From: Longimicrobium sp.
GTDB lineage: Bacteria; Gemmatimonadota; Gemmatimonadetes; Longimicrobiales; Longimicrobiaceae
Direction of reading: 5' to 3'
Assembly: GCA_035689035.1 (NCBI GenBank)
Contig: DASSME010000407.1
Coordinates: 28,054 to 92,053 of the forward strand
DNA: 64,000 nt
Shown: in pieces, positions 28,024 to 49,822 of the stretch
Numbering within the stretch: position 1 is the first letter of the stretch
Layout: each line of letters opens with the position of its first letter
Notes under the pieces: model-generated
The model's input: only the letters and a program-made list of their open reading frames with translations
Database searches by the model: none
Told to the model about the DNA's origin: nothing
Program-made: the position numbers and the translations under genes

Positions 28024-29112
28024 CTACGAAGACATTCGCGCGAGCGCATGCTTTGCCGCACGAATACGCGCGGTTTCGGCGCTCGCGAGAGCTTCTGTCA
28101 TCCTTGTACCGTTGTGTTCAACATATTCAAACCGTCGGACGACTTCGACAAGACGGTCCTCCTTATAGAGATACGCCGCGAGTCCAGCGGCGATATCCGC
28201 CGCGCGTACAGGTTCTGAAAGGACTGAGTCGAGTTCGATCAGGCAGCTAGGCTGCTCGGACTGGGTCAGCGCGAACGGATCATAATCCATCAAATCGCTG
28301 AACTCCCGGCGCAAACTCTCGAGTATACCAAGAACTTTTGTATTCCCACGGTCGAAGGCATGCTTTTTTCGAAGTTCGGCTCCAATTCGCTGCTTTTCGA
28401 GGTTGCTGTATGCCTGAAGACTCCATCCGTCATGTGGGCTTGCGACTTCTTCCAACGCGTTCGCGAAAACGGATGCAGATCTCGCAGCAAACAGCAATGT
28501 GTGGTTTAGCTTGTTGTCAAGCTGGTATCGAAGTTTGTGATGCATCTCGCTCAACTGTTCTGCCCCGATTACATCGACCCATCCGTTCATCAGCACGACA
28601 TCGATATATCGCGCAAGTTGCTCGGCGCGAGAATTCCACAATACGTCTGCAGCTACGAACTCCGCTTCCAGTTCGCGCAACTTCTGACCTGCAGGCGTCG
28701 GTTCGTTTAGACTTCGTAACATCCAATCGTCACCGGAATCAAGTAGCTCGTGCCTTAACCCCATAACGTACGGACGTGGGTCTACTATATGGATCCGCGC
28801 TAGGCGCGCACCATTCCATACTGACTCTCGAAGGTCGTAGGAGAGATCGGGTAGTCGTTCTAAAACAGTTTGTGACTTCAGTTCGCCGTCAACGGAAATT
28901 TGCTTAACAAGGTCATAATACCAGTCAAGCGGATGGTGTGGAAACCATTGTGCTGCGACAATGACTCTGCCGAATCCCGAAGCGTGATCGCGCGGGGTCG
29001 TTTCATCCGTAAATGAAACAACCCCGTCGCCTTCCGGTGTAAGCTCCACCGCGTTTTGAAAAGCGGACACAGGCAGATCTCCACTGCTGTGGCTCTCGCC
29101 GGTAACCGGCAT
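28024..29112 (-). CDS. Lower-GC hypothetical protein, DUF3800-like (RNase H-fold) putative nuclease
   Basis: N-terminal 'SFTDET' and C-terminal 'DS...PVRAADIAAG' resemble the DUF3800 DE...S..QxAD pattern; starts 17 bp after rtcB; atypical codon usage. Confidence 0.5.
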   Translation of the reverse strand: MPVTGESHSSGDLPVSAFQNAVELTPEGDGVVSFTDETTPRDHASGFGRVIVAAQWFPHHPLDWYYDLVKQISVDGELKSQTVLERLPDLSYDLRESVWNGARLARIHIVDPRPYVMGLRHELLDSGDDWMLRSLNEPTPAGQKLRELEAEFVAADVLWNSRAEQLARYIDVVLMNGWVDVIGAEQLSEMHHKLRYQLDNKLNHTLLFAARSASVFANALEEVASPHDGWSLQAYSNLEKQRIGAELRKKHAFDRGNTKVLGILESLRREFSDLMDYDPFALTQSEQPSCLIELDSVLSEPVRAADIAAGLAAYLYKEDRLVEVVRRFEYVEHNGTRMTEALASAETARIRAAKHALARMSS

Positions 29113-29129: not shown

Positions 29130-30404
29130 TCAATCCTTGTACGGATCGATCTCGCCGGCGCCGGCCATGACGACGACCAGCGGATGCAGGACGTGCTGCA
29201 CCTCGATGGTGGGGCCCTGCGCCTCGAGCACCTTCGGGAGGCGGCGGTAGACCTGCGGCGCCTCGTCCAGGCCGCCGCCGCGAAGGACAACGCCACGCTT
29301 CGCCAGCCAGTCTTCCACCATCGTCGGCTGGATCTTGCCGTGGCTCTTCACCATCCCCTTGCGGGTGCGCTTGCCGGCGGCCTCGGTGCGGCTCATCACG
29401 CGGCCGGCGCCGTGCACGGTGCTGAACAGCGCGTCGCGCTGCACGGCCGCGATCTCGCTGTCCTCCGGCGCCACCGCGCCGGCCACGATCACCGCGTCGT
29501 CGCCCATTGATCCGCCGATGAAGCCGCGCTGGCCGGGGAACGCCGGCGTGGCGCCCTTGCGGACCACGATGTACTCCACCGGCTCTCCCTCGGGCGAAAG
29601 ATGGGTCTCGCGCCAGGCGAAGTTGTGGTGGTTGTGCACCATCTCCAGCTCGGTGCCGCCCAGCAGCTCCACCACCTTGCGCGCCACCCACTCGCGCCCG
29701 GCGTAGGCGTAGCGGCCAGCCAGCTCCATCAGGTGCCAGTAGTCGTGCCCCACGGGCTGGGTCACGTCCAGCAGCACCTCCTTCTCCCGCGCGCGCTGCC
29801 CCCAGTCGCCGCCCTGGGACAGCGACAGGAAGTCCGACGCGACGGTGTGCCCGAAGCCGCGGCTGCCGAAGTGCACGCCCACCCACACCGTGCCCGCGTC
29901 GTCGGCGAACACGTCCACGTAGTGGTTGCCCGAGCCGACGGTGCCCAGCTGGCGCCGCGCCTTCTCGCGAAGCGTATCGCGGTAGCCGCCCGTGTTGGGG
30001 ATGGCGTACCACGCCGGGTCGTTGAAGAGCGGGTCGTCCACCGGCGCGTCGTCGGCCTCGTTCTTCCGCCCGATCCCGAACGACACCGTCCCCGCGATCT
30101 CGTCCGCCGCACGGTTGACGCGCCGGTCCGTCGCCAGCCGGTGCGGGTTCCGCCGCACCTCGTCGATGGTGAGCCCCTTGGTGATGTCTCCGATCGTGAG
30201 GTCGGTTCGGATCGCGCAGTTCCCGCACGCGATGTCGAAACCCACGCCAACTACCGAAATCTTATCACGATACGCCGCCACGCCACCGATGGGCATCACG
30301 TAGCCGACGTGCCCGTCCGCCATGATGGCGGCCCGTTCAGCGCGGCTCGCGACGTCACGCAGCTGCAGGATCGTCTTCTCGTCGTGCTGCCCGAAGATCT
30401 TCAT
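29130..30404 (-). CDS. rtcB: RNA 2',3'-cyclic phosphate/5'-OH ligase RtcB
   Basis: 'DGHVGYVMPIG', 'VGFDIACG', 'GTVGSGNHY', 'HFGSRG', 'HNHHN', 'RKGATP', 'HGAGR', 'DEAP..Y'. Confidence 0.95.
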   Translation of the reverse strand: MKIFGQHDEKTILQLRDVASRAERAAIMADGHVGYVMPIGGVAAYRDKISVVGVGFDIACGNCAIRTDLTIGDITKGLTIDEVRRNPHRLATDRRVNRAADEIAGTVSFGIGRKNEADDAPVDDPLFNDPAWYAIPNTGGYRDTLREKARRQLGTVGSGNHYVDVFADDAGTVWVGVHFGSRGFGHTVASDFLSLSQGGDWGQRAREKEVLLDVTQPVGHDYWHLMELAGRYAYAGREWVARKVVELLGGTELEMVHNHHNFAWRETHLSPEGEPVEYIVVRKGATPAFPGQRGFIGGSMGDDAVIVAGAVAPEDSEIAAVQRDALFSTVHGAGRVMSRTEAAGKRTRKGMVKSHGKIQPTMVEDWLAKRGVVLRGGGLDEAPQVYRRLPKVLEAQGPTIEVQHVLHPLVVVMAGAGEIDPYKD

Positions 30405-30522: not shown

Positions 30523-30843
30523 TTAGTCCTCGTCGTCCCAGCGCTTGTCGGAGCGCTCTTCCTTGCGCTGAAGGTACTGGAACTCGCGGTCGCGCGCCCG
30601 CTGGCGCTCGGTGGATTCGCGGATGCCCTCGATCACGCTGGTGCGCAGCCACACCCGCGCGCCGTTGATGTCCACGAACTTGATCCACCGCGGCAGCCAG
30701 CGCCGCTCCAGCGCACGCGACAGCCGCGCCGCCGTGGCCACGTCCACGTAGTACCACTCGCGGCGGGTGTCCACCACGAAGTAGTCGCCCGCGTTCGGCT
30801 GCTCGCGCCCGGCCTGCTCCTGCTTCTGCCTGGTCGTGGTCAT
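30523..30843 (-). CDS. Small hypothetical protein between rsr and rtcB
   Basis: 106-aa ORF with coding-like codon bias; beta-rich core and charged tail. Confidence 0.7.
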   Translation of the reverse strand: MTTTRQKQEQAGREQPNAGDYFVVDTRREWYYVDVATAARLSRALERRWLPRWIKFVDINGARVWLRTSVIEGIRESTERQRARDREFQYLQRKEERSDKRWDDED

Positions 30844-30982
30844 GCTCGGTTCAGGGTTCTGCCGCCCGAAGCGCGGGTCCACCCAAGACCCGCGTCCGCG
30901 CGACATCAGTCGTATGATCTCCGGCCATCCGTCTCCCCGCGGGCGGGGCACGGGCCGGAGCCCGGGCCCCGGACCGCGCCGC

Positions 30983-32626
30983 CTACCGCGCGAAGTCGGT
31001 GATCAGCGCCGGCGTGGCGGCGTCGAAGCCCACCACGTCCAGCATCCCCGCGTCGTCCGGATCGGCGATGGTGAACCCGTTCGACGCCATCGCGACGACC
31101 ACCAGCTTCGCCGCGATCCCCGTGGCCTCGCGGTACTGCCGCAGGGCCTGGGTGGGGTGGATGGTGCCGGCCCACGTCTCGCTGTCGGTGTAGACCACGA
31201 AGACGTCGACCGCCCACCCGTGCTTGCGCGCCTCCACCATCGGCAGCGCGCAGTCGGTGCCGCCGAAGGGGAGCGCGCCCGTCTTCGCCACCACGTCATC
31301 CAGCCGCTGCCGCGGCGAGATGTCCAGCGTCGACAGCCCGCTGGGAAAGCCCGCGTGCATGCTGGGGTAAGTCCCCTGCGTGAACGCGGTGAAGAAGTGC
31401 CGCGGCTCGACCGCCGCCGTCACCAGCGCCATGGCGGCGCTCGCCTCGCGGCAGCTGACGCCCGTCAGGCCGTGCACGGGGGTGCACATGCTCCCCGACA
31501 CGTCCAGCGCCAGCATCACCCGGCGGCCGCTGGGCTCCACCGCCCCGAAGGCCAGGTAGAACGCCGCGTCCAGCGCGTCGCTCACCCGCGCCACCGGTTC
31601 CCACCGGCCCGTCCCGCGCACCCCGCGCCCGCTGGCGTAGGTGCGCAGCGCCGACAGGATCTGCACCGGGTGCACCCGCGCCCGGCGCAGCGCGGCCTGG
31701 TCCGTGATCCGCGCCGCCACCGTCTCCACGGCGGCGTTGCCGGGCGCCAGCACGCCCACCCGGGTGAGCGTGGCCAGGTTGCGGACCAGCGCGGTGAGCG
31801 GCATCGCCTCGAGCAGCGCCTCCCAGACCACGGGGTGGGCCAGCAGCGGCGTGGGCACCATCTCGCGGGTGAGCCGGTGCTCGCGCACCCACTCGGCCGC
31901 CCGCCGCGGCTCCATCCCGCCGTCCGCGTGCAGCTCGGCCACGGCACGCACCAGCCGCACCGCCTCCGTCTCGGGGGCGTCGGCGGGGAGCGCGCCGGTG
32001 ACGGCGCGGGCCAGCAGCGCCTGCTGCTCGCCGTCCGCCGGCCGGGGGTGCGCCAGCCGCAGCGCGTCGCGGTGGCTCCAGCCGTCGCGCTGCGGGTACT
32101 TCAGGAGCTGGTAGGCCAGCTCGCGCGCGGGCCGGGCCGTGTACCAGCGCGCCACCGCCCGCCGCACCCCGCGGCCCCAGCCGCGGAACGCCCGCACGTA
32201 CTGCAGCCAGTGCAGCAGGTGGGTGCCCGTGCGCGCCACCCGCGGCAGCGCGTCGAGCGCCGCGGCCCGCGTGGCCTCGTCGCCCAGCCCCGCCGCCATG
32301 GCCAGGGCGAAGAGCGCGGGGTCGTTGCGGGGCGCGCGGCCCGCCTCGCTGATCTCCACGATCCGGCGCACCACGCGGGCGCCGTCCTGCGCGATGCACT
32401 CGGCCACGGCGGTGGCGCTCTCCACCGTCAGCTGGCGCTCGGCCACGTAGTAGGTGCCGCCCTCGGTGCCCAGGACCAGGAAGCGGTCCAGCCGCGCCCA
32501 GCGGTCCACCGCCCACGCGAACCCGCCGCCGCTGTTGGGCACCTGCGCGGTGCCGGGGATCGGCGCGCTCTGCGGCGTGGCCAGCGTCCGCAGGCGAGTG
32601 GCGAAGTGCTTCGTGAAATCCATCAT
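30983..32626 (-). CDS. rsr: Ro60-related TROVE/vWA RNA-binding protein
   Basis: 'NSGGGF', 'RLDRFLVLGTEGGTYY', 'KYPQRDGWSHRDALRLAHP', 'ALVRNLATLT', vWA 'LDVSGSM', 'GGTDC', 'TDSET', 'MLDVVGFD'. Confidence 0.96.
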   Translation of the reverse strand: MMDFTKHFATRLRTLATPQSAPIPGTAQVPNSGGGFAWAVDRWARLDRFLVLGTEGGTYYVAERQLTVESATAVAECIAQDGARVVRRIVEISEAGRAPRNDPALFALAMAAGLGDEATRAAALDALPRVARTGTHLLHWLQYVRAFRGWGRGVRRAVARWYTARPARELAYQLLKYPQRDGWSHRDALRLAHPRPADGEQQALLARAVTGALPADAPETEAVRLVRAVAELHADGGMEPRRAAEWVREHRLTREMVPTPLLAHPVVWEALLEAMPLTALVRNLATLTRVGVLAPGNAAVETVAARITDQAALRRARVHPVQILSALRTYASGRGVRGTGRWEPVARVSDALDAAFYLAFGAVEPSGRRVMLALDVSGSMCTPVHGLTGVSCREASAAMALVTAAVEPRHFFTAFTQGTYPSMHAGFPSGLSTLDISPRQRLDDVVAKTGALPFGGTDCALPMVEARKHGWAVDVFVVYTDSETWAGTIHPTQALRQYREATGIAAKLVVVAMASNGFTIADPDDAGMLDVVGFDAATPALITDFAR

Positions 32627-32672
32627 CTCTCTTTCACTCGCCTCCTTCCGGGCTGAGCGTGGGGGGTGGAAA

Positions 32673-32763
32673 GGCGCCGCGCGCGGACGAGGGAGCCCGG
32701 GTGGAGATGCCGGTGCAACACCGGTTTGCGATCACCCGCCTGGTACGGCCCGCGCGCGGCGCC
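32673..32763 (-). ncRNA. Y RNA-like element Y1
   Basis: 14-bp terminal stem ggcgccgcgcgcgg/ccgcgcgcggcgcc; bulged-C helix GGGCCG / CUCGUCC; GGGUGAUCG box; next to rsr. Confidence 0.75.
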
Positions 32764-32772
32764 GGAGTGGAG

Positions 32773-32877
32773 AGGGCGGCGGATGAGGTGGCGCCGCTCG
32801 GCGCACGGCCTCCAGTTGCCCGGAGAACCATCCGTTAAAGGGATGCGATAACCGAATCGGCTACGACCCACCGCCCT
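32773..32877 (-). ncRNA. Y RNA-like element Y2
   Basis: Terminal stem agggcggtGGGUCG / CUCAUCCgccgccct; CGGUUAUCG box. Confidence 0.7.
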
Positions 32878-32914
32878 TCCTGTCTGTCCCGCGGTACTGC
32901 CTGGCTTCGAACGC

Positions 32915-33036
32915 GGAACGAGGGCCGGGGGGAGGTCAGGATTCGAACCTGAATTGACCACGGTAATCCTCATCCAACGGCCCGCCTTGCGGCGGACGAG
33001 GAGCGGCGAGGAACCCTCCACCGCCGGCCCCGCTCC
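32915..33036 (-). ncRNA. Permuted Y/tRNA-like element with T-arm
   Basis: Outer stem ggagcggggccgg/ccggccctcgttcc; inner CUCGUCCgcc-GCAA-ggcGGGCCG hairpin; GGAUUACCG box; T-arm UCAGG-UUCGAAU-CCUGA. Confidence 0.65.
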
Positions 33037-33050
33037 CTGCGCGTTCTTCA

Positions 33051-33164
33051 GCCGCACCGCCGCGCGCGGACGATCAGGTCCGCGGGCGGCACCCGGTCGC
33101 ATGGACCGGGTTCGAACTGGGCGCGATAACCGCTCGCGAGCGGCCCACGCGCGAACGGTGCGGC
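33051..33164 (-). ncRNA. Y RNA-like element Y3
   Basis: Terminal stem gccgcaccg..cgcgcgtGGGCCG / AUCGUCCgcgcgcg..cggtgcggc; CGGUUAUCG box; internal GUUCGAA. Confidence 0.7.
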
Positions 33165-33183
33165 GTCTGTCTTCCAGCTCCAG

Positions 33184-33314
33184 TGGAACCGGCGGGATTC
33201 GAACCCGCGACCTCTCGATCCCAAGTCGGTAACCCTCGGCCTTCGGCCCGGCGCGAGCACCGGGCAAGGGGGTGGCAGAAGGCGTAGCGCTCTACCGGGC
33301 TGAGCTACGGTCCC
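33184..33314 (-). ncRNA. tRNA(Pro-UGG)-like gene with a 57-nt Y-RNA hairpin inserted in the anticodon stem
   Basis: Acceptor GGGACCG/CGGUUCC+A, D-arm GCUC-AGCCCGGUA-GAGC, T-arm GCGGG-UUCGAAU-CCCGC. Removing 33229-33285 gives CUCGA-CUUGGGA-UCGAG and a 74-nt cloverleaf. Confidence 0.75.
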
Positions 33315-33343
33315 ACGGTGCTGCGTTGGCGCGATGCGAAGCG

Positions 33344-33478
33344 GGAGGCCCGGCGGGAATCGAACCCGCGACATCCGGAGTCACGATGATCCTCCGCCTT
33401 CGGCCCGCGGCGGGCAGCCACGGGCAAGGGGCCGGGGAGGATACCTCCGGTGCTCTACCGCTGAGCTACGGGCGCTCC
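33344..33478 (-). ncRNA. tRNA(His-GUG)-like gene with a 59-nt Y-RNA hairpin inserted in the anticodon arm
   Basis: D-arm GCUC-AGCGGUA-GAGC, stem CCGGA/UCCGG, T-arm GCGGG-UUCGAUU-CCCGC; insert 33387-33445 carries CCCCUUGCCC...GGGCCGAAGG. Confidence 0.75.
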
Positions 33479-33497
33479 ACGTTCCGCGTCAGGCAGG

Positions 33498-33570
33498 GGC
33501 GGCTGGTGGGGCTCGAACCCACTCCCCCGGATCCACGGCCCAGTGCTCTTCCCGTTGAGCTACGGCCGCC
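33498..33570 (-). tRNA. tRNA-His(GUG)-like gene, atypical
   Basis: G-1:C73 pair, acceptor GCGGCCG/CAGCCGC (1 mismatch), D-arm GCUC/GAGC, loop CCGUGGA (C33 instead of U33), T-arm GUGGG-UUCGAGC-CCCAC; no encoded CCA. Confidence 0.65.
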
Positions 33571-33600
33571 ACACGCCTGTGTCTTTCGTACGATCTTCGC

Positions 33601-33692
33601 GGCCGGCGGACCGGCGGAGCGTGTCCGCCTTCGGCCCTGGGAGTCGCGTTCGCCGGTGCCTGGGGCGTTCCCGCCCGCCGGCGCCGCCGGCC
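33601..33692 (-). ncRNA. Degenerate permuted Y-like hairpin
   Basis: Outer stem ggccggcgg..ccggcgg/ccgccgg.ccgccggcc containing GGGCCGAAGGCGG; second box absent. Confidence 0.35.
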
Positions 33693-33746
33693 GTCGTCTG
33701 GTCTGACCACCTCCGGGTGATCGGGTTCGTCACCGGGCGGAAACGA

Positions 33747-33787
33747 ACATCGCCCCGCCCGCGGCTTCTGCGCGGGCGGGGCGATGT
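33747..33787 (-). terminator. Long perfect hairpin (terminator or processing signal)
   Basis: acatcgccccgcccgcg / cgcgggcggggcgatgt, followed on the minus strand by tcgtttcc. Confidence 0.5.
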
Positions 33788-34216
33788 GGTCGCCTCCGAC
33801 GGACGTGGGTGCCTGGCGGAACGTTATGCCGCCAACCCGGTCCTCCCGCGCTGTTCCTTCTCGATCCCGTCATGCGGACCGCCCGCTTTGGCGCCGCGCT
33901 CGCCCACCGGGTTCATCAGCCCGAAGGGGGAGTACGGACGCACTTCGCCCAGCGGGGTGGCCGCGCACCTCTCCACCGCGGCGCCGGGCAACACGCCGGC
34001 GCCGGTGGATCTGTGCTGGAGTTGGGCGAAGCTGGGTCGCTGCATCTCGCTATACCGTCTTGCCGGCATCCCCGGCGGTGGTGGTCTGGACTCCCTGAAA
34101 CGCAAAATCGCGCCGCCGACGTCTCGCCGTGGTGCTCACGGCGCGGCATCCAATCCCCATGCAGGCGGGGTGTGGAAGACCGAACGACATCGGGACGCGA
34201 CTCCCAAGAGGCGACG

Positions 34217-34246
34217 AGTCTACAAGCGCTCCCCGCGGTCTGTCAA
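34217..34246 (-). promoter_or_regulatory. Sigma70-like promoter for the RNA array / rsr-rtcB locus
   Basis: Minus strand TTGACA-N18-TAGACT. Confidence 0.6.
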
Positions 34247-34413
34247 CCCTCTCCTTCGCTTCCTCGCGCCAGGCGATCCTTCGCCCCACCCGCGGCGGAC
34301 GGCGTAAGCCCTGGTGGATGAACGGCTTGCGCGGGGGATGGAAAAGGGCGGCGGGCGAGACAAAGTGCTGTCTCGCCCGCCGCCGCGTGCCGGAGGATGC
34401 GGTCCGCCGCGCG

Positions 34414-35694
34414 TCAGCCCACCGCGCCCGTCTGCGTCCCGTCATTCTCGCCGGTGGGCGAAGCGGCGGGGCCAGCCTCGCCCGCTTCATCGCCGCCGGA
34501 CATGTCCTCGCCCTCGTCACCGCCCGCGTACGCCGCCACGGGCGTCGGGTCGGCCTGGGACTCGTCCACCGGCGTGGGCACGTCGGCCGCCGCCGCGGTG
34601 GGCACGGACGGTTCGGCTGCCGGGGCGTCGACGGACGCCGCGGGCGCCAGGTCGGCGGGCGCGGAGACGATCGGGATGTTGGGGAGCGACACGGTGGCCG
34701 CGGGCGTCTCGACGGGTGGCGCCGGCGTCTCGGGTACGGCGTGCTCACCCGTGGGCGCCAGCGAGTTCAGCACGCTGGAGAGCTGCTGCGTGAGGGTGGC
34801 CGGGTCCGCGCCGGCCGACACCTGCTGCTGCAGCCCCACGATCTGCGCCGCCACGCGCATCCGCGCCTGCGACACCTCTTCGCTGGCGCGGGTCTGTGCG
34901 GCGCGCTCGCGCTGGGCCATCTCCTCGGCGGGGCTGCCGCGGAACACGGCTTCCACGCTCTCCACCAGCTTGGCCAGGATGCGGTACACGGCACTCGCCG
35001 AGAAGCCACCGAGCATTGCCAGCGTGGGCAGCGCGAGCGAGGCGCCGCCGACGCCCGAGGCCGCTCCCGCGGTCCCGGACGGCTGCGCGTTGCCTCCGAT
35101 CGGGATCAGTGCCACCAGGATGAACCCCGCCATCACCCCCAGGATGAACTTGATCCAGTAGGTAGGCTCGTACTTGGGATCGTAGGTGCGCTTCACGATG
35201 TAGCCGTTCACCTGCATCAGCATGGCGAACGACGCGCCGATCCCCGCCGAGGCCATCCAGAACAGCTCGTTGGCCAGCAGCGGCCAGCCCGACGAGTTGG
35301 CGAAGCTCATCCCCGGCCCGGTGTCGGTGTTGGTGACTTTGGTGATGCTGAGCGCCACGAACACGATCACCGAGATGATCGACGCCGCCAGCATGCGACG
35401 CACCAACCCCACCGAGCCCAGCCAGGCCACGCGGCCCCCACGGTCGTCACCCAGGGCGATCAGCGCGCGCGGGGTGGCGGGCGCAACCAGCCGCGAAAGC
35501 TGGTCGTGCGCCTTCACCAGCGGCGCCAGGTTCATGGGCTGCGAAGGGTCGGCGAAGCGAGCCCTCTCGATGGCGTCGGCGGCCGCGGCGGGCACGGTCA
35601 TGCCCGAGGCCAGGGCGTAGCGCGCCATGGCGCTCGACTCGTTGAGCAGCTGCTCGCGCAGCTCGCAGGTGCTGGGGGGCGACTGGGTTGGCAT
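34414..35694 (-). CDS. Hypothetical membrane protein with acidic Pro/Ala-rich tail
   Basis: 4 TM helices ('AGIGASF', 'LGVMAGFIL', 'LGGFSASAVYRIL'), coiled coil, low-complexity C-terminus. Confidence 0.75.
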   Translation of the reverse strand: MPTQSPPSTCELREQLLNESSAMARYALASGMTVPAAAADAIERARFADPSQPMNLAPLVKAHDQLSRLVAPATPRALIALGDDRGGRVAWLGSVGLVRRMLAASIISVIVFVALSITKVTNTDTGPGMSFANSSGWPLLANELFWMASAGIGASFAMLMQVNGYIVKRTYDPKYEPTYWIKFILGVMAGFILVALIPIGGNAQPSGTAGAASGVGGASLALPTLAMLGGFSASAVYRILAKLVESVEAVFRGSPAEEMAQRERAAQTRASEEVSQARMRVAAQIVGLQQQVSAGADPATLTQQLSSVLNSLAPTGEHAVPETPAPPVETPAATVSLPNIPIVSAPADLAPAASVDAPAAEPSVPTAAAADVPTPVDESQADPTPVAAYAGGDEGEDMSGGDEAGEAGPAASPTGENDGTQTGAVG

Positions 35695-38022: not shown

Positions 38023-39885
38023 ATGGCTGACTACCGCAACGACGACGACCGGACGCTTCCCGGGGTGGGGATGAACCGCACCCCCGAAACCGATCCGGAG
38101 CACCTGCTCCCCGACCACACCAGCGCCGGCGCGGTGGGCTCCATCCCCGCCGCCGCGCTGAGCGGCGACCCCGACGCGGTGCGCGACGAGATCGAGCGCA
38201 CGCGTGCCCGGATGAGCCGCACCATCGACCAGCTGGACCGCGCCCTGGTGCGCAAGAAGACTGAGGTGCAGGAAAAGCTCGACGTGGCCGCGCCGATCCG
38301 GCAGCGCCCCTGGGTCTACGCCGGCGGCGTGTTCGCGGCCGGCCTGGCGCTGGGGCTGATCACCGGCGGCGGCAAGCGCGACGACGACGAGGACGACGAC
38401 CACGTGAAGATCCCCAAGGCCCTGCTGGCGGGGATCGGGCTGCAGCAGGCGAGGGGCGGCCGCGGGTCCGGCGACGACGTGGAGGTGGAGTACACCGGCG
38501 AGGGCTCGGACGACTGGGAGACGCGCGCCCGCGAGCTGATGTCGGTGGTGGCCCGGCAGGAGGAGGAGATCCGCTCGCTGCGCGGCGGCGGGCCGGACGA
38601 GACCTGGTACGACGACCCGGACTACCTGTCGCCCACCGACGCCCGCCTGCTCGACGACGTGGAGGCGCTCTCGGAGCACGACGTGCAGGACGAGTGGGAC
38701 GAGGACTGGAACTTCGTGGAGGGCGGGTACAACGACGAGCTCGGCGACACCTACACCGGCCAGCTCGACGGCGACCTGTACATGGGCTCGGAGTACGACG
38801 CGGCCGACTACGAGGTGGAGCTGGACCAGTACGCGCGGAGCGGGATCGACTTCAAGAAGCCGCTGGCCATGCTCCTGGCCGCCGGCGTGGCGGGCGCGCT
38901 GGGCACGCTCGGCAAGCGCGTCCTGGGCGGCCGCGACGACGAGGAGCTGGACGTGGAGGTGGAGCTGGAGCCCCGCGGCGGGCTGGCCGAGGACGTGTAC
39001 GTGGACGAGGCCGGCCGTAGCGCCCGCCGCGCCGCCCGCCACCAGGCGGGGCCCGCGCCGCGCGCCCGCGAGTACGGCCCGGAGTACGGAGCGGCCGGCG
39101 GCGAGCGCTACGCGGCCGCCCCGGCGCCGCGCCGCGCGGGCGCCTACGAGACGCGTGGCGCGTACGACGCCGGGTACGGGTACACCGGTGAGCACGGCGG
39201 CGAGATGGAGGTGGAGGTCGACCTGGAGCAGCCGGTCCGCCGCACCGGGTACACGGGTGAGATGGAGGTGGAGGTCGAGCTGGAGCGCCCGGTGCGCCGG
39301 TCGCTTCCGCCGCGGCGCCGCCGCCCGCGGGTGAGCCCGCTGGCCGGCGCGGTGGCGGCGGGCGCGGCGGCCGCGGTGAGCGGACTGGTGGCCAAGCTGA
39401 TCCATAGCCGCGCCGAGCGTGCCTCCGAGATGGAGGTGGAGGTGGAGCTGGAGCAGCCGCGGCGCCAGCCGGCACCGGTGCGCCGCTCGCCGGCCCCGCA
39501 GCGCCCGGCCGCGGCCTACACGCCGCAGCCGGCGGCCCGTCCGCAGGCGTCCGCGGGCGGTGAGCTGGAGGTGGAGGTAGAGCTCGAGACGCCGCGCGCC
39601 ACGCCCGCCACCGGCAGCTGGACGCCGTCCGCGCACCCGGAGCAGGCGATCAGCGGCTCCGCGTTCGGCTCCACGGCCTCGGCCGGGGCGTCGGACCGTC
39701 CCACCGACGTGGAGGTGGACGCCGAGACTCGCGGCGCCACCCGGGCGGCCGGGGGCACGGTGGGCTACGGCACCGGCGGACAGCCGAACCACACCGGCAC
39801 CCCCGGGAGCGCCTCCGGCAGCGGGAACGCCGGCGGCGGCACCGGCACCGGCGGCAGCACCCCGTCCAACCCGCCGCTGATGTAA
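38023..39885 (+). CDS. DUF3618-like protein with acidic low-complexity repeats
   Basis: 'DAVRDEIERTRARMSRTIDQL'; repeated E(M/L)EVEVELE motif; AGGAGG RBS. Confidence 0.75.
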   Translation: MADYRNDDDRTLPGVGMNRTPETDPEHLLPDHTSAGAVGSIPAAALSGDPDAVRDEIERTRARMSRTIDQLDRALVRKKTEVQEKLDVAAPIRQRPWVYAGGVFAAGLALGLITGGGKRDDDEDDDHVKIPKALLAGIGLQQARGGRGSGDDVEVEYTGEGSDDWETRARELMSVVARQEEEIRSLRGGGPDETWYDDPDYLSPTDARLLDDVEALSEHDVQDEWDEDWNFVEGGYNDELGDTYTGQLDGDLYMGSEYDAADYEVELDQYARSGIDFKKPLAMLLAAGVAGALGTLGKRVLGGRDDEELDVEVELEPRGGLAEDVYVDEAGRSARRAARHQAGPAPRAREYGPEYGAAGGERYAAAPAPRRAGAYETRGAYDAGYGYTGEHGGEMEVEVDLEQPVRRTGYTGEMEVEVELERPVRRSLPPRRRRPRVSPLAGAVAAGAAAAVSGLVAKLIHSRAERASEMEVEVELEQPRRQPAPVRRSPAPQRPAAAYTPQPAARPQASAGGELEVEVELETPRATPATGSWTPSAHPEQAISGSAFGSTASAGASDRPTDVEVDAETRGATRAAGGTVGYGTGGQPNHTGTPGSASGSGNAGGGTGTGGSTPSNPPLM

Positions 39886-49248: not shown

Positions 49249-49499
49249 GGGGTGGATGGTTCGCGGTGCGGGCGCCGGAGGGCGCGGCGGAGCGGGGCGC
49301 GTGGAGGAGAAACCGTATGCGAGCATCGGCGGGGCGGCTCGGGTTTCCGGTGGGCAGCGCGGGTGGGCGCGCCAGTGACAGGCGATCATGGAAACGCATC
49401 AACCACGAATCTTGTGACAGTTCGTGAGCAGGGCGCGACAAAGCGTCGTGTGGCGGGGTTGTCCGCGGCGCGCGGCGGCCGTAGCTTTGCTCGCTGACA

Positions 49500-49685
49500 A
49501 CATCGAAGCGAGGGGGCCTTTCGGAAGCCGGTGCAACTCCGGCGCGGCCCCGCCACTGTAAGAGGCCCGGCGCGCGTGCGCTGCCGGTCCGGCCCGCTCC
49601 GCGGGGGTTCAGCCCCCGCACAGCCACTGGGCAGCACGCCCGGGAAGGTGGAGCGCCAGCCGCCTCGAGCCAGGAGACCGGCCCC
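49500..49685 (+). promoter_or_regulatory. Cobalamin riboswitch
   Basis: ggaagccggtgcaactccggc...gccactgtaa, gccactggg...gggaagg and B12 box agccaggagaccggcc, upstream of btu genes. Confidence 0.93.
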
Positions 49686-49822
49686 CGCGCTCCCGCATGA
49701 ACGCCCCTCGCGGGAGGGGTGCGGGGTCCGACCATCGGCCGAGCTCGCTCCGGGCCCCTCGCGGGCCGCCTCGCCGACCGTCGCACCCGTTCTCTCCCCG
49801 GCAGTGGGAAGGAACGGGTTCT

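What the first reader, a model, noticed from the sequence alone, without database searches (positions are those of the whole stretch)
33184..33478. tRNA genes with a permuted Y-RNA Ro-binding hairpin inserted in the anticodon arm (intron-like)
Seen: two adjacent elements have self-pairing acceptor, D and T arms in normal tRNA order, each with a 57-59 nt insert in the anticodon arm. Both inserts read CCCCUUGCCCG-(hairpin)-CGGGCCGAAGGC. This is the Y-RNA bulged-C helix with its 3' strand first and its ends closed by a loop. It is the inverse permutation of YrlA, where the Ro stem holds the free ends and the acceptor is closed. Deleting 33229-33285 gives a 74-nt tRNA-Pro(UGG) cloverleaf (CUCGA-CUUGGGA-UCGAG). 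Deleting 33387-33445 gives a His(GUG)-like arm. Inference: either chargeable tRNA mimics that tether Ro60, or Ro-marked introns removed and sealed by the adjacent RtcB. Caveat: the insert 3' boundary overlaps the conserved Y box, so the restored anticodons could be partly coincidental.
Basis: partly seen in the sequence, partly recalled or inferred. Interest (0 to 1): 0.92.

Follow-up and report, generated by a model that had tools for sequence, protein, structure and literature searches.

The report
tRNA-shaped Y RNAs beside Ro60 gene
Just upstream of the Ro60 (rsr) and RtcB RNA-repair genes of a soil Longimicrobium lie small RNA genes built like ordinary tRNAs that carry the Ro60-docking hairpin of Y RNAs in the anticodon arm. 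This is the reverse wiring of the published bacterial Y RNAs, it is conserved in at least four phyla, and it looks like a Ro60 partner RNA rather than a tRNA gene with an intron.

Summary
On the minus strand, e1 (33475-33345) and e2 (33314-33184) have acceptor, D and T arms in normal tRNA order. Each carries a 54-57 nt hairpin holding both strands of the Y-RNA Ro60-binding helix, closed by a short loop.

Homologous arrays occur in all 24 same-genus genomes searched. I collected 118 such elements beside rsr in Gemmatimonadota, Myxococcota, Armatimonadota and Chloroflexota. Covariation supports the open, self-pairing acceptor stem: 98% of cells are paired and all 7 pairs show changes on both sides.

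The Rfam YrlA model does not detect these elements. They are best read as circularly permuted ("tRNA-order") YrlA-type Y RNAs, cotranscribed with rsr-rtcB.

The intron reading is disfavoured:
- The "restored" anticodons are not conserved among orthologues.
- e2's acceptor stem is alanine-like (G3:U70, A73), not proline-like.
- A normal tRNA-Pro(UGG) exists in 26 of 31 genus genomes.
- No splicing endonuclease was found.

New here: e2-type elements keep a complete anticodon hairpin with a free-varying triplet, and position -1 usually pairs with position 73.

No RNA data were available, so ends, charging and Ro60 binding remain inferred. The scan found the same layout before in cyanobacteria and a phage. 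I found no published description.

The parts
34217..34246 (-). Promoter-like site (TTGACA, 18-nt spacer, TAGACT). It follows the terminator of the upstream gene at 34384-34347 and is the likely start of the RNA array-rsr-rtcB transcription unit.
   Evidence: it is the only sigma-70-like site in 32500-34500 (10 of 12 matches; shuffles give a mean of 0.1). No terminator-like site lies between it and rsr.
33496..33570 (-). tRNA-His(GUG)-like gene heading the array. It has G-1:C73 and a GUG anticodon, but C33 instead of U33 and one acceptor mismatch. It is a second copy beside a canonical tRNA-His elsewhere in the genome.
   Evidence: (50.3 bits). In the genus copies G-1, GUG and C73 are conserved, and position 33 is U or C.
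33345..33475 (-). e1, a tRNA-order Y RNA of type 1. It is a cloverleaf with a 6-bp anticodon stem whose 'loop' is replaced by the Y arm, plus an 8-nt 3' bulge (CAUCGUGA).
   Evidence: tRNA model 40.6 bits with a 66-nt insertion; the minimum-free-energy fold is this structure (z = -2.2); the class has a 5-bp anticodon stem with compensatory changes.
33389..33442 (-). Y arm of e1. It consists of stem 2 (AUCCUCC/GGAGGAU) and the Ro60-binding helix CCUUGCCCG...CGGGCCGAAGG, closed by a short loop.
   Evidence: the core helix is paired in 99% of cells over 118 elements.
33184..33314 (-). e2, a tRNA-order Y RNA of type 2. It is a complete cloverleaf, including an anticodon hairpin, with the Y arm branching from the 5' strand of the anticodon stem between positions 28 and 29. 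The acceptor stem has G1-C72, G2-C71, G3:U70 and A73.
   Evidence: 95.6% of cells paired, 0 of 500 shuffles as high; 109.7 bits. G3:U70 otherwise occurs only in the genome's three tRNA-Ala genes.
33229..33285 (-). Y arm of e2. It consists of stem 2 (CCUUC/GAGGG), the Ro60-binding helix CCUUGCCCGG...CCGGGCCGAAGG capped by a 4-nt loop, and then the UUAC junction.
33216..33228 (-). Inner anticodon-like hairpin of e2 (CGA, loop CUUGGGA, UCG). C32, U33 and a purine at 37 are kept, and the triplet varies among orthologues.
   Evidence: the stem covaries to UCC/GGA in two aligned sequences.
32915..33042 (-). e3, a third permuted element. It has a long closing stem, no normal D arm, a Ro-type hairpin (CUCGUCCGCC, GCAA cap, GGCGGGCCGUUGG), a UUACC box and a perfect T arm.
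   Evidence: (z = -2.5), (46 bits).
33050..33165 (-). Structured module between e2 and e3. It contains GGGCCG and a GGUUAUCG box inside a stem with three hairpins. Its nature is unresolved.
   Evidence: (minimum free energy -80.1 kcal/mol, z = -4.1).
32673..32763 (-). Y RNA of conventional topology. The 5' strand (...GCGGGCCGUACC) and the 3' strand (CCCUCGUCCGC...) form a long terminal stem that holds the RNA ends. It lies 47 nt upstream of the rsr start.
   Evidence: z = -4.0, 0 of 200 shuffles as stable. A similar 5'-strand-then-3'-strand order just upstream of rsr is seen in other phyla.
30983..32626 (-). rsr, the Ro60 orthologue (TROVE domain plus Ro60 vWA domain).
   Evidence: PF25045 E = 4.5e-61 and PF05731 E = 3.1e-42. 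NF041674 scores 550 bits, below its curated cut-off of 900.
30523..30951 (-). Small ORF with no known family, conserved between rsr and rtcB in Gemmatimonadota.
   Evidence: no family; present in 21 rsr loci; only Gemmatimonadota hypothetical proteins resemble it.
29130..30404 (-). rtcB, an RNA 3'-phosphate/5'-OH ligase.
   Evidence: PF01139 E = 3.9e-59; present downstream of rsr in 27 of 80 loci.

Best explanation
e1 and e2 (with e3) are Y RNAs, the non-coding partner RNAs of the Ro60 orthologue Rsr. They are wired as the circular permutation of the published YrlA class.

In YrlA the RNA ends lie in the Ro60-binding stem and the tRNA-like acceptor stem is closed by a loop. Here the Ro60-binding stem is a closed hairpin and the ends lie in an open acceptor stem, so the gene reads like a tRNA with an extra arm. 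That arm comprises the lower helix GGGCCGAAGG/CCUUGCCC, an upper helix and a UUAUC junction.

Shown by computation:
- the architecture;
- its covariation;
- its fixed position upstream of rsr on the same strand;
- the presence of the same helix motif, in conventional topology, in another RNA of the same operon.

Inferred:
- The array is transcribed with rsr, a small ORF and rtcB from the promoter at 34246-34217.
- tRNA-maturing enzymes (RNase P and 3' trimming, perhaps CCA addition) cut the precursor into units. M. smegmatis YrlA is known to be cleaved and extended in this way.
- Rsr binds the hairpin.
- The tRNA-shaped body, as the effector module, recruits a tRNA-binding factor or gates access to Rsr.
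- The inserts stay in the mature RNA.
For: Topology:
- Acceptor strands pair within an element at 6.77 of 7 (65 elements), against 5.42 of 7 across neighbours.
- On 118 elements from four phyla the acceptor helix is 98.1% paired, with changes on both sides at all 7 pairs.
- The whole structure is 91.3% paired, against 79.9% in shuffles (0 of 500 reach it) and 35-52% when partners are slid.
Ends there are therefore unlikely.

Y-RNA identity of the arm:
- The core helix is 99% paired.
- Stem 2 has a mean best helix of 6.6 bp, with different sequences in different species.
- The consensus GGGCCGAnGGnnGAGGGUUAUC parallels the human Y4 5' arm GGUCCGAUGGUAGUGGGUUAUC (sequence confirmed in PMC7012775).
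- It contains the bacterial GNCGAAN0-1G motif (PMC4201824).
- A conventional-topology Y RNA with the same two strands lies at 32763-32673.

Context:
- The elements are directly upstream of rsr, on the same strand, with no predicted terminator between.
- Arrays occur in 24 of 24 genus genomes and in 52 of 80 rsr loci by a strict filter.
- The composite pattern occurs nowhere else in the genome.

tRNA features:
- U8, A14, the D-loop GG and the T loop are invariant or nearly so.

Precedent:
- M. smegmatis YrlA is cut by RNase P and receives CCA.
Against: - No transcript data exist. No run listed as holding this stretch is on record as RNA, so ends, processing and Rsr binding are untested.
- For e2 the single-sequence minimum-free-energy fold (-60.1 kcal/mol) differs from the comparative structure (-40.6) and is no better than shuffles (z = -0.6).
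- The nucleotides after GGGCCG (AA in the window) vary among orthologues, so the lower part of the Ro-type helix is not always Watson-Crick.
- Position -1 pairs with position 73 in 93 of 112 elements, against 16 of 44 genomic tRNAs. Maturation may therefore differ from that of standard tRNAs.
- The 118 elements were picked with sequence filters that required the GGGCCG box and a D arm, so the invariance of those boxes is partly by selection.
Confidence: 0.75

Rival explanations
1. Spliced tRNA genes. The Y-type hairpins are introns marked by Ro60, cut out and sealed by the neighbouring RtcB. This would yield working tRNA-Pro(UGG) from e2 and tRNA-His(GUG) from e1.
For:
- The insert-deleted e2 is 84% identical to the genome's tRNA-Pro(CGG).
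- No tRNA-Pro(UGG) gene is in this assembly.
- RtcB is a tRNA-splicing ligase in archaea and animals (established knowledge), and rtcB lies in the operon.
Against: - Triplets are not conserved among orthologues that share the same acceptor stem. Close relatives with 88% identical Rsr have UGG, CCA and CCG.
- The boundary is arbitrary: ARAGORN's own choice gives Thr(CGU) and Gly(ACC).
- In type 1 the 'anticodon' overlaps the conserved UUAUCG box.
- The insert positions differ: between 28 and 29 in type 2, and in the loop in type 1.
- There is no bulge-helix-bulge motif. No EndA homologue was found, although the genome is only 83% complete.
- e2's acceptor stem is alanine-like, while the genome's tRNA-Pro genes have C1-G72.
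- A canonical tRNA-Pro(UGG) is present in 26 of 31 genus genomes, and a canonical tRNA-His is present in this genome.
- The insert itself is under strong structural constraint across four phyla.
Confidence: 0.04
2. Ordinary YrlA topology. The mature RNAs run from the GGGCCG strand of one unit, through its T arm, the spacer and the D arm of the next unit, to that unit's CUUGCCC strand. The tRNA order would then be only an effect of tandem repetition.
For: - The Rfam YrlA model aligns the T arm of e1 with the D arm of e2 at 35.1 bits.
- It reaches up to 47 bits in relatives.
- Cross-unit acceptor strands can still form 5 to 6 of 7 pairs.
Against: - All those scores are below the 69-bit cut-off, in 0 of 31 genomes.
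- Pairing within a unit is better and covaries.
- The Ro-helix strands of one unit are joined by tetraloop-sized caps.
- Spacers between units vary from 10 to 141 nt and are not conserved.
- e1 has no upstream partner unit: a complete His-like tRNA precedes it.
Confidence: 0.07
3. An extension of the best explanation rather than a strict alternative. The units are matured to CCA ends and aminoacylated, e2-type elements by AlaRS, so that Rsr is tethered to a charged tRNA mimic, as tmRNA is charged with alanine.
For: - e2 has G1-C72, G2-C71, G3:U70 and A73. G3:U70 occurs only in the three tRNA-Ala genes among 44 tRNAs of this genome.
- 14 of 25 type-2 elements have G3:U70 together with A73, and four share the exact tRNA-Ala acceptor stem.
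- AlaRS ignores the anticodon (established knowledge), which would fit the free triplet.
- Genomic tRNAs also lack encoded CCA (3 of 61).
- M. smegmatis YrlA receives CCA.
Against: - 11 of 25 type-2 elements lack G3:U70.
- Elements of other phyla have other acceptor stems.
- U-1 pairs with A73 in most type-2 elements, which would bury the discriminator if position -1 is retained.
- G20, a minor AlaRS determinant in E. coli (from memory), is absent from e2.
- There is no charging data.
Confidence: 0.2
4. Decaying tRNA pseudogenes or chance resemblance, with no function for the inserts.
For: - e1 has an acceptor mismatch.
- e2's fold is no better than shuffles.
Against: - The elements are conserved in 24 of 24 genus genomes and in four phyla.
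- Compensatory changes occur in every helix.
- The elements always lie beside rsr.
Confidence: 0.01

Closest known systems
YrlA (Y RNA-like A; Rfam RF02553; Chen et al. 2014, PMC4201824; structure in Wang et al. 2018, bioRxiv 10.1101/312249)
   Same: - It is encoded next to rsr, often with rtcB.
- It is modular: a Ro60-binding stem plus a tRNA-like domain with conserved T arm, D arm, U8 and acceptor-type stem.
- The anticodon-stem equivalent continues into the Ro60-binding stem.
   Different: - The gene order is the circular permutation. Here the D arm comes first and the T arm last, the acceptor stem is open and the Ro stem is closed by a loop. YrlA has the T arm first, a loop-closed acceptor stem and its ends in the Ro stem.
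- The Rfam model scores 35 bits against a cut-off of 69.
- Both strands of the Ro helix are recognisable here, whereas only the 5' strand is in Salmonella and M. smegmatis.
- Type 2 also keeps an anticodon hairpin, which YrlA lacks.
Processed M. smegmatis YrlA (PMC4201824)
   Same: [quoted passage not shown]
   Different: - There the open acceptor stem arises by cutting a loop, which leaves a two-piece RNA with four ends.
- Here a single chain would have the same shape without a nick.
Vertebrate Y RNAs (for example human Y4) and D. radiodurans Yrn1
   Same: - There is a lower helix with GG(U/G)CCGA and UUG(A/C)CC strands and a bulged C.
- This is followed by an upper helix ending in GGGUUAUC (for the human Y4 sequence).
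- Yrn1 also has its D- and T-like elements in tRNA order.
   Different: - In those RNAs the ends are in the Ro-binding stem.
- In Yrn1 the Ro stem takes the place of the acceptor stem, not of the anticodon arm.
- The Rfam Y_RNA model gives no match here.
tmRNA and viral tRNA-like structures
   Same: - They are tRNA mimics with open acceptor ends.
- tmRNA carries G3:U70 and is charged by AlaRS (established knowledge), as e2's acceptor stem would allow.
   Different: - There is no mRNA-like module, no SmpB context and no evidence of charging.
- The partner here is Ro60.
tRNA genes with introns (archaeal bulge-helix-bulge introns, bacterial group I introns) and permuted tRNA genes of algae
   Same: - An insert interrupts the anticodon arm of a recognisable tRNA gene.
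- RtcB-type ligases seal such introns in archaea.
   Different: - There is no bulge-helix-bulge motif.
- At 54-57 nt the insert is far too small for a group I intron.
- No endonuclease gene was found.
- The insert is the conserved functional part, and the 'exon' anticodon is the variable part.

Membership tests
YrlA (Rfam RF02553) | Encoded within a few kb of a Ro60/rsr gene | tested here: met
   The array ends 47 nt upstream of rsr on the same strand. The same holds in 24 of 24 genus genomes and in 52 of 80 rsr loci.
YrlA (Rfam RF02553) | Ro60-binding stem with the GNCGAAN0-1G motif in one strand | tested here: met
   e1 and e2 read GCCGAAG inside GGGCCGAAGG. GGGCCG is invariant in the 118 elements, partly by selection, while the AA varies.
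YrlA (Rfam RF02553) | tRNA-like domain with T arm, D arm and acceptor-type stem | tested here: met
YrlA (Rfam RF02553) | Topology: T arm 5' of D arm, acceptor stem closed by a loop, RNA ends in the Ro stem | tested here: not met
   The D arm is 5' of the T arm, acceptor strands pair within a unit with covariation, and the Ro stem is capped by 3-19 nt. The ends themselves were not mapped.
YrlA (Rfam RF02553) | Score at or above the family's gathering cut-off (69 bits) | tested here: not met
   The window scores 35.1 and 23.9 bits. None of 31 genus genomes is over the cut-off, and the best score is 47.3 bits.
Y RNA in the functional sense (RNA bound by Ro60) | Physical binding to Ro60/Rsr | not testable with these tools
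   This needs Rsr pull-down or gel shift. Only motif and context evidence is available.
tRNA (Rfam RF00005) | Cloverleaf scoring over the gathering cut-off (29 bits) | tested here: inconclusive
   e1 scores 40.6 bits with a 66-nt insertion. e2 scores only 24.7 bits, on its 3' part. ARAGORN calls both only in intron mode.
tRNA (Rfam RF00005) | Anticodon and identity elements conserved among orthologues and consistent with each other | tested here: not met
   Triplets vary freely: 33 kinds among 69 screened loops, about 45 of them genuine. e2 combines an alanine-type acceptor stem with UGG.
tRNA (Rfam RF00005) | Unpaired discriminator (no -1:73 pair, except in tRNA-His) | tested here: not met
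   Position -1 pairs with 73 in 93 of 112 elements, against 16 of 44 genomic tRNAs.
Intron-containing tRNA gene | Splice motif (bulge-helix-bulge or group I core) and a splicing enzyme in the genome | tested here: not met
   The junction is a three-way junction with no bulge-helix-bulge motif. The insert is 54-57 nt. No PF01974 match was found in the 83%-complete genome, while four archaeal controls matched.
Intron-containing tRNA gene | Spliced product detectable | not testable with these tools
   No run listed as holding this stretch is on record as RNA.

The most novel reading that the evidence does not exclude
The tRNA-order Y RNAs are matured like tRNAs, and at least the e2 type is alanylated. 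Its intact anticodon loop, with a rapidly changing triplet, serves as bait. The loop is a stand-in substrate that anticodon-cutting toxins or stress nucleases cleave. The Ro60-bound RNA would then hand the damage signal or the broken ends to the co-encoded RtcB ligase. In this reading the array is a panel of Ro60-tethered sentinel tRNAs, and it also preserves the ancestral state from which permuted YrlA RNAs arose by reading across tandem units.
Probability: 0.08. Interest if true: 0.9.

Novelty: new variant of a known kind. Interest (0 to 1): 0.68.

Why it matters
**A missed class.** Bacterial Y RNAs are defined in print by the permuted YrlA layout, with a closed acceptor stem that cannot carry CCA. 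The search that defined them discarded hits overlapping tandem tRNA genes and found few YrlAs in cyanobacteria and deltaproteobacteria. The layout shown here would have been missed by design, yet it is common beside rsr in Gemmatimonadota, Myxococcota, Armatimonadota and Chloroflexota. Earlier follow-ups in this scan (AI notes, not checked here) report it in cyanobacteria and a phage.

**New questions it opens.** This layout gives Ro60 a partner with real tRNA ends. That reopens whether Y RNAs are processed, CCA-tailed or charged, and which tRNA-binding factor is the missing YrlA effector.

**Origin of Y RNAs.** It also gives a concrete intermediate for the proposal that Y RNAs arose from dimeric tRNA transcripts (10.1101/312249): a tandem array of tRNAs that already carry the Ro60 site in the anticodon arm.

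**Annotation.** Such genes can be mis-annotated as intron-containing or pseudo-tRNAs.

Tried and rejected
- **RNA evidence.** The search for sequencing runs listed four holders, all from one study and none on record as RNA (no RNA holder listed).
- **Default scans.** Default ARAGORN and the Rfam gathering-threshold scan see only the His-like tRNA. The Rfam Y_RNA family gave no match at E up to 10.
- **Single-sequence folding of e2.** It does not recover the cloverleaf, so I relied on comparative data.
- **MAFFT columns for stem 2.** They were misaligned, giving 56% paired. I scored stem 2 with an anchored helix search instead.
- **Covariance model R1.** It also scores ordinary tRNAs at 50-69 bits. 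The phylum-wide search therefore only showed that, among the top matches listed, hits above 90 bits occur in the two Longimicrobium genomes sampled. It is not a usable census.
- **e2 as the missing tRNA-Pro(UGG).** I considered this and rejected it.
- **Type 1 as histidine-identity RNAs.** G-1:C73 is frequent, but A-1:U73 variants show a structural pair rather than a HisRS signal.
- **RNAalifold's CG/CG pair.** It links the bulged CG of GGGCCG with the CG of UUAUCG. Both sides are invariant, so it is untestable and was not adopted.
- **Literature.** Burroughs and Aravind 2016 (NAR) and the supplements of Chen et al. 2014 are not held. Four full-text searches on bacterial Y RNAs and tRNA mimicry found no description of an unpermuted bacterial Y RNA. 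This is not proof that none exists.
- **Neighbouring ORFs.** The 142-aa, 362-aa and 442-aa ORFs have no Pfam or NCBIfam family.
Full report
**What is there**

The finding lies on the minus strand of a 71% G+C contig. The source is a Longimicrobium sp. metagenome-assembled genome (Gemmatimonadota), with 587 contigs and 83% completeness.

Reading 5' to 3' on that strand, the region contains:
- a terminator of the upstream gene (34384-34347) and a promoter-like site (34246-34217);
- about 450 nt of leader;
- a tRNA-His(GUG)-like gene (33570-33496);
- e1 (33475-33345);
- e2 (33314-33184);
- a structured module (33165-33050);
- e3 (33042-32915);
- a Y RNA of conventional topology (32763-32673);
- rsr (32626-30983), a 142-codon ORF with no family, and rtcB (30404-29130).

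**Check of the observation**

e1 and e2 have, in normal tRNA order:
- a 7-bp acceptor stem;
- U8-A9;
- a GCUC/GAGC D arm with the GG of the D loop;
- a GCGGG/CCCGC T arm with a UUCGA(A/U)U loop;
- a discriminator base.

Each holds CCCCUUGCCCG, a short cap, then CGGGCCGAAGGC.

Supporting scores:
- Rfam's tRNA model scores e1 at 40.6 bits (cut-off 29), with 66 nt inserted in the anticodon loop.
- ARAGORN in intron mode calls e1, e2 and e3.
- A composite pattern for the arm plus T loop hits only these three places in the 6.5-Mb genome.
- A covariance model built from relatives scores e2 at 109.7 and e1 at 94.6 bits, against 66 bits or less for every real tRNA.

**Which topology**

In a tandem array the order D, 3' strand, 5' strand, T cannot by itself be told apart from ordinary YrlA read across neighbours. 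I therefore tested the acceptor stem.
- In 22 same-genus loci, the 5' strand pairs with the 3' strand of its own unit at 6.77 of 7 positions (65 units). It pairs with the 3' strand of the preceding unit at 5.42 of 7.
- Many complementary variants occur, for example AUGCCCG/CGGGCAU, GGGCCUG/CAGGUCC and UACCCCG/CGGGGUA.
- On a MAFFT alignment of 118 elements from four phyla, not fitted to any structure, the acceptor helix is 98.1% paired and all seven pairs show changes on both sides.
- The whole structure is 91.3% paired. Shuffles give 79.9% (0 of 500 reach the observed value), and slid partners give 35-52%.
- The two strands of the Ro-type helix are joined by only 3-19 nt, mostly 4-7, including UUCG and GCAA caps.
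- The Rfam YrlA model reaches 35 bits in the window and at most 47 bits in 31 genus genomes. The cut-off is 69.

Ends were not mapped, however.

**The arm is a Y-RNA module**
- The core helix G(U/C)CCG/CGGGC is paired in 99% of cells.
- A second helix follows, with a mean best run of 6.6 bp. Its sequence differs between species while complementarity is kept.
- Then comes a conserved UUAUC box.
- The consensus GGGCCGAnGGnnGAGGGUUAUC parallels the 5' arm of human Y4, GGUCCGAUGGUAGUGGGUUAUC. I confirmed that sequence in the literature (PMC7012775).
- It contains the bacterial motif GNCGAAN0-1G.
- The same two strands, in conventional order and forming a terminal stem, occur in the RNA at 32763-32673 (z = -4.0).

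One operon thus holds the Ro-type helix in both topologies.

**Two architectures**

Type 1 (e1):
- It has a 5-bp anticodon stem made by the two halves, with clear compensatory changes (GC 16 / AU 15 at one pair, AU 19 / GC 18 at the next).
- The arm takes the place of the loop.
- A 3' bulge begins with the UUAUCG box, so the "anticodon" read after deletion overlaps a conserved box.

Type 2 (e2):
- It keeps a whole anticodon arm. Two outer pairs (C27-G43, U28-A42) are formed by the two halves and are 100% paired, with one double change.
- The arm branches off between positions 28 and 29.
- Three inner pairs and a 7-nt loop are local (CGA, CUUGGGA, UCG). The inner stem covaries to UCC/GGA in two aligned sequences.
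- The loop keeps C32, U33 and a purine at 37, but the triplet is free. A loose screen called 69 loops, about 45 of which look genuine. Among the 69 there are 33 different triplets.
- Close relatives of the window species read CCA and CCG where the window reads UGG.

**Against introns**
- The variable triplets argue against a decoding role.
- ARAGORN chooses other boundaries and other amino acids.
- The junction has no bulge-helix-bulge motif.
- No EndA homologue was found in the incomplete genome, while four archaeal controls matched.
- e2's acceptor stem (G1-C72, G2-C71, G3:U70, A73) matches the genome's tRNA-Ala genes. G3:U70 occurs only in those three among 44 parsed tRNAs. The tRNA-Pro genes start with C1-G72.
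- The assembly lacks tRNA-Pro(UGG), but a canonical gene with that anticodon arm is present in 26 of 31 genus genomes. Its absence here is best explained by incompleteness.
- A canonical tRNA-His with U33 is present on another contig.

**How it probably works**

I read the elements as Rsr partner RNAs whose effector module is a tRNA in native order. The following steps are inferred:
- The elements are cotranscribed with rsr and rtcB.
- RNase P and 3' trimming release the units. In M. smegmatis, YrlA is cut by RNase P at the acceptor stem and gains CCA.
- Rsr binds the hairpin.
- The tRNA elbow recruits an as yet unknown tRNA-binding factor, as proposed for YrlA.

The lack of encoded CCA is normal in this genome: only 3 of 61 tRNA genes have it.

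Two points bear on charging:
- The alanine-type acceptor stem is found in 14 of 25 type-2 elements, and AlaRS ignores the anticodon.
- Against that, position -1 pairs with position 73 in 37 of 39 type-1, 18 of 25 type-2 and 38 of 48 other-phylum elements, compared with 16 of 44 genomic tRNAs. The pair covaries (G:C 30, A:U 6 in type 1). The closing stem is therefore at least 8 bp, as in tRNA-His. This may move the RNase P cut or bury the discriminator.

**Distribution and prior knowledge**
- Arrays occur in 24 of 24 same-genus genomes.
- By a strict filter, 52 of 80 rsr loci carry at least one element: 9 of 21 Longimicrobiaceae, 11 of 14 other Gemmatimonadota, 23 of 32 Myxococcota, 7 of 10 Armatimonadota and 2 of 3 Chloroflexota.
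- The papers I could read describe YrlA only as a circularly permuted tRNA with a closed acceptor stem. They derive it from dimeric tRNA transcripts.
- The original search removed hits on tandem tRNA genes and found few YrlAs in cyanobacteria and deltaproteobacteria.
- This scan has met the unpermuted layout before in cyanobacteria and in a phage. Those notes agree with what I tested here.

**Verdict**
- Interpretation: tRNA-order Y RNAs, a new variant of a known kind.
- The intron reading is unlikely.
- Charging remains open.
- Nothing about expression, ends or binding could be tested.

Noticed in passing
window 33496-33570 (-): The tRNA-His-like gene heading the array is a second copy; a canonical tRNA-His with U33 lies on another contig. 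In the genus it always keeps G-1, GUG and C73, but position 33 is C in about half of the species. That is unusual for a decoding tRNA.
   Followed up: partly
window 32673-32763 (-): A conventional-topology Y RNA (long terminal stem with GGGCCG and CUCGUCCG strands; z = -4.0) lies 47 nt upstream of rsr. The same 5'-strand-then-3'-strand order just upstream of rsr appears in Armatimonadota, Chloroflexota and Myxococcota loci.
   Followed up: partly
window 33050-33165 (-): A strongly structured module (z = -4.1) with a closing stem and three hairpins. It contains GGGCCG and GGUUAUCG but has no recognisable T or D arm. Its nature is unknown.
   Followed up: no
window 33625-33637 (-): An orphan GGGCCGAAGGCGG box lies upstream of the His-like tRNA with no matching CUUGCCC strand nearby. 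The local fold is not significant (z = +0.7). Similar boxes appear in some relatives.
   Followed up: no
window 30523-30951 (-): A small ORF between rsr and rtcB has no Pfam or NCBIfam family. It is conserved at this position in 21 Gemmatimonadota rsr loci and is a candidate extra component of the Ro60-RtcB system.
   Followed up: partly
window 28024-29112 (-): A 362-codon ORF lies directly after rtcB. It has no family match and no homologue in any of the 80 rsr loci fetched, so it is not a conserved part of the operon.
   Followed up: partly
L085 and other Myxococcota rsr loci (for example L059-L088): rsr is flanked on both sides by long arrays of tRNA-sized (69-74 nt) genes with perfect 7-bp acceptor stems, in addition to tRNA-order Y RNAs downstream of rsr. 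I did not examine whether these are ordinary tRNAs or mimics.
   Followed up: no
window 33184-33475 and relatives (alignment A2): The box G(G/A)UUAUC after the second helix is conserved from Gemmatimonadota to Chloroflexota and matches the GGGUUAUC of human Y4. Its role at the junction is unknown.
   Followed up: partly
window 49497-49700 (+): A cobalamin riboswitch (Rfam RF00174, 43.8 bits, over the cut-off).
   Followed up: no
window 39768-39861 (-): ARAGORN calls a 94-nt tRNA-Gly(CCC) here. It lies inside a high-GC3 coding region, and Rfam's tRNA model does not support it. It is probably a false positive.
   Followed up: no
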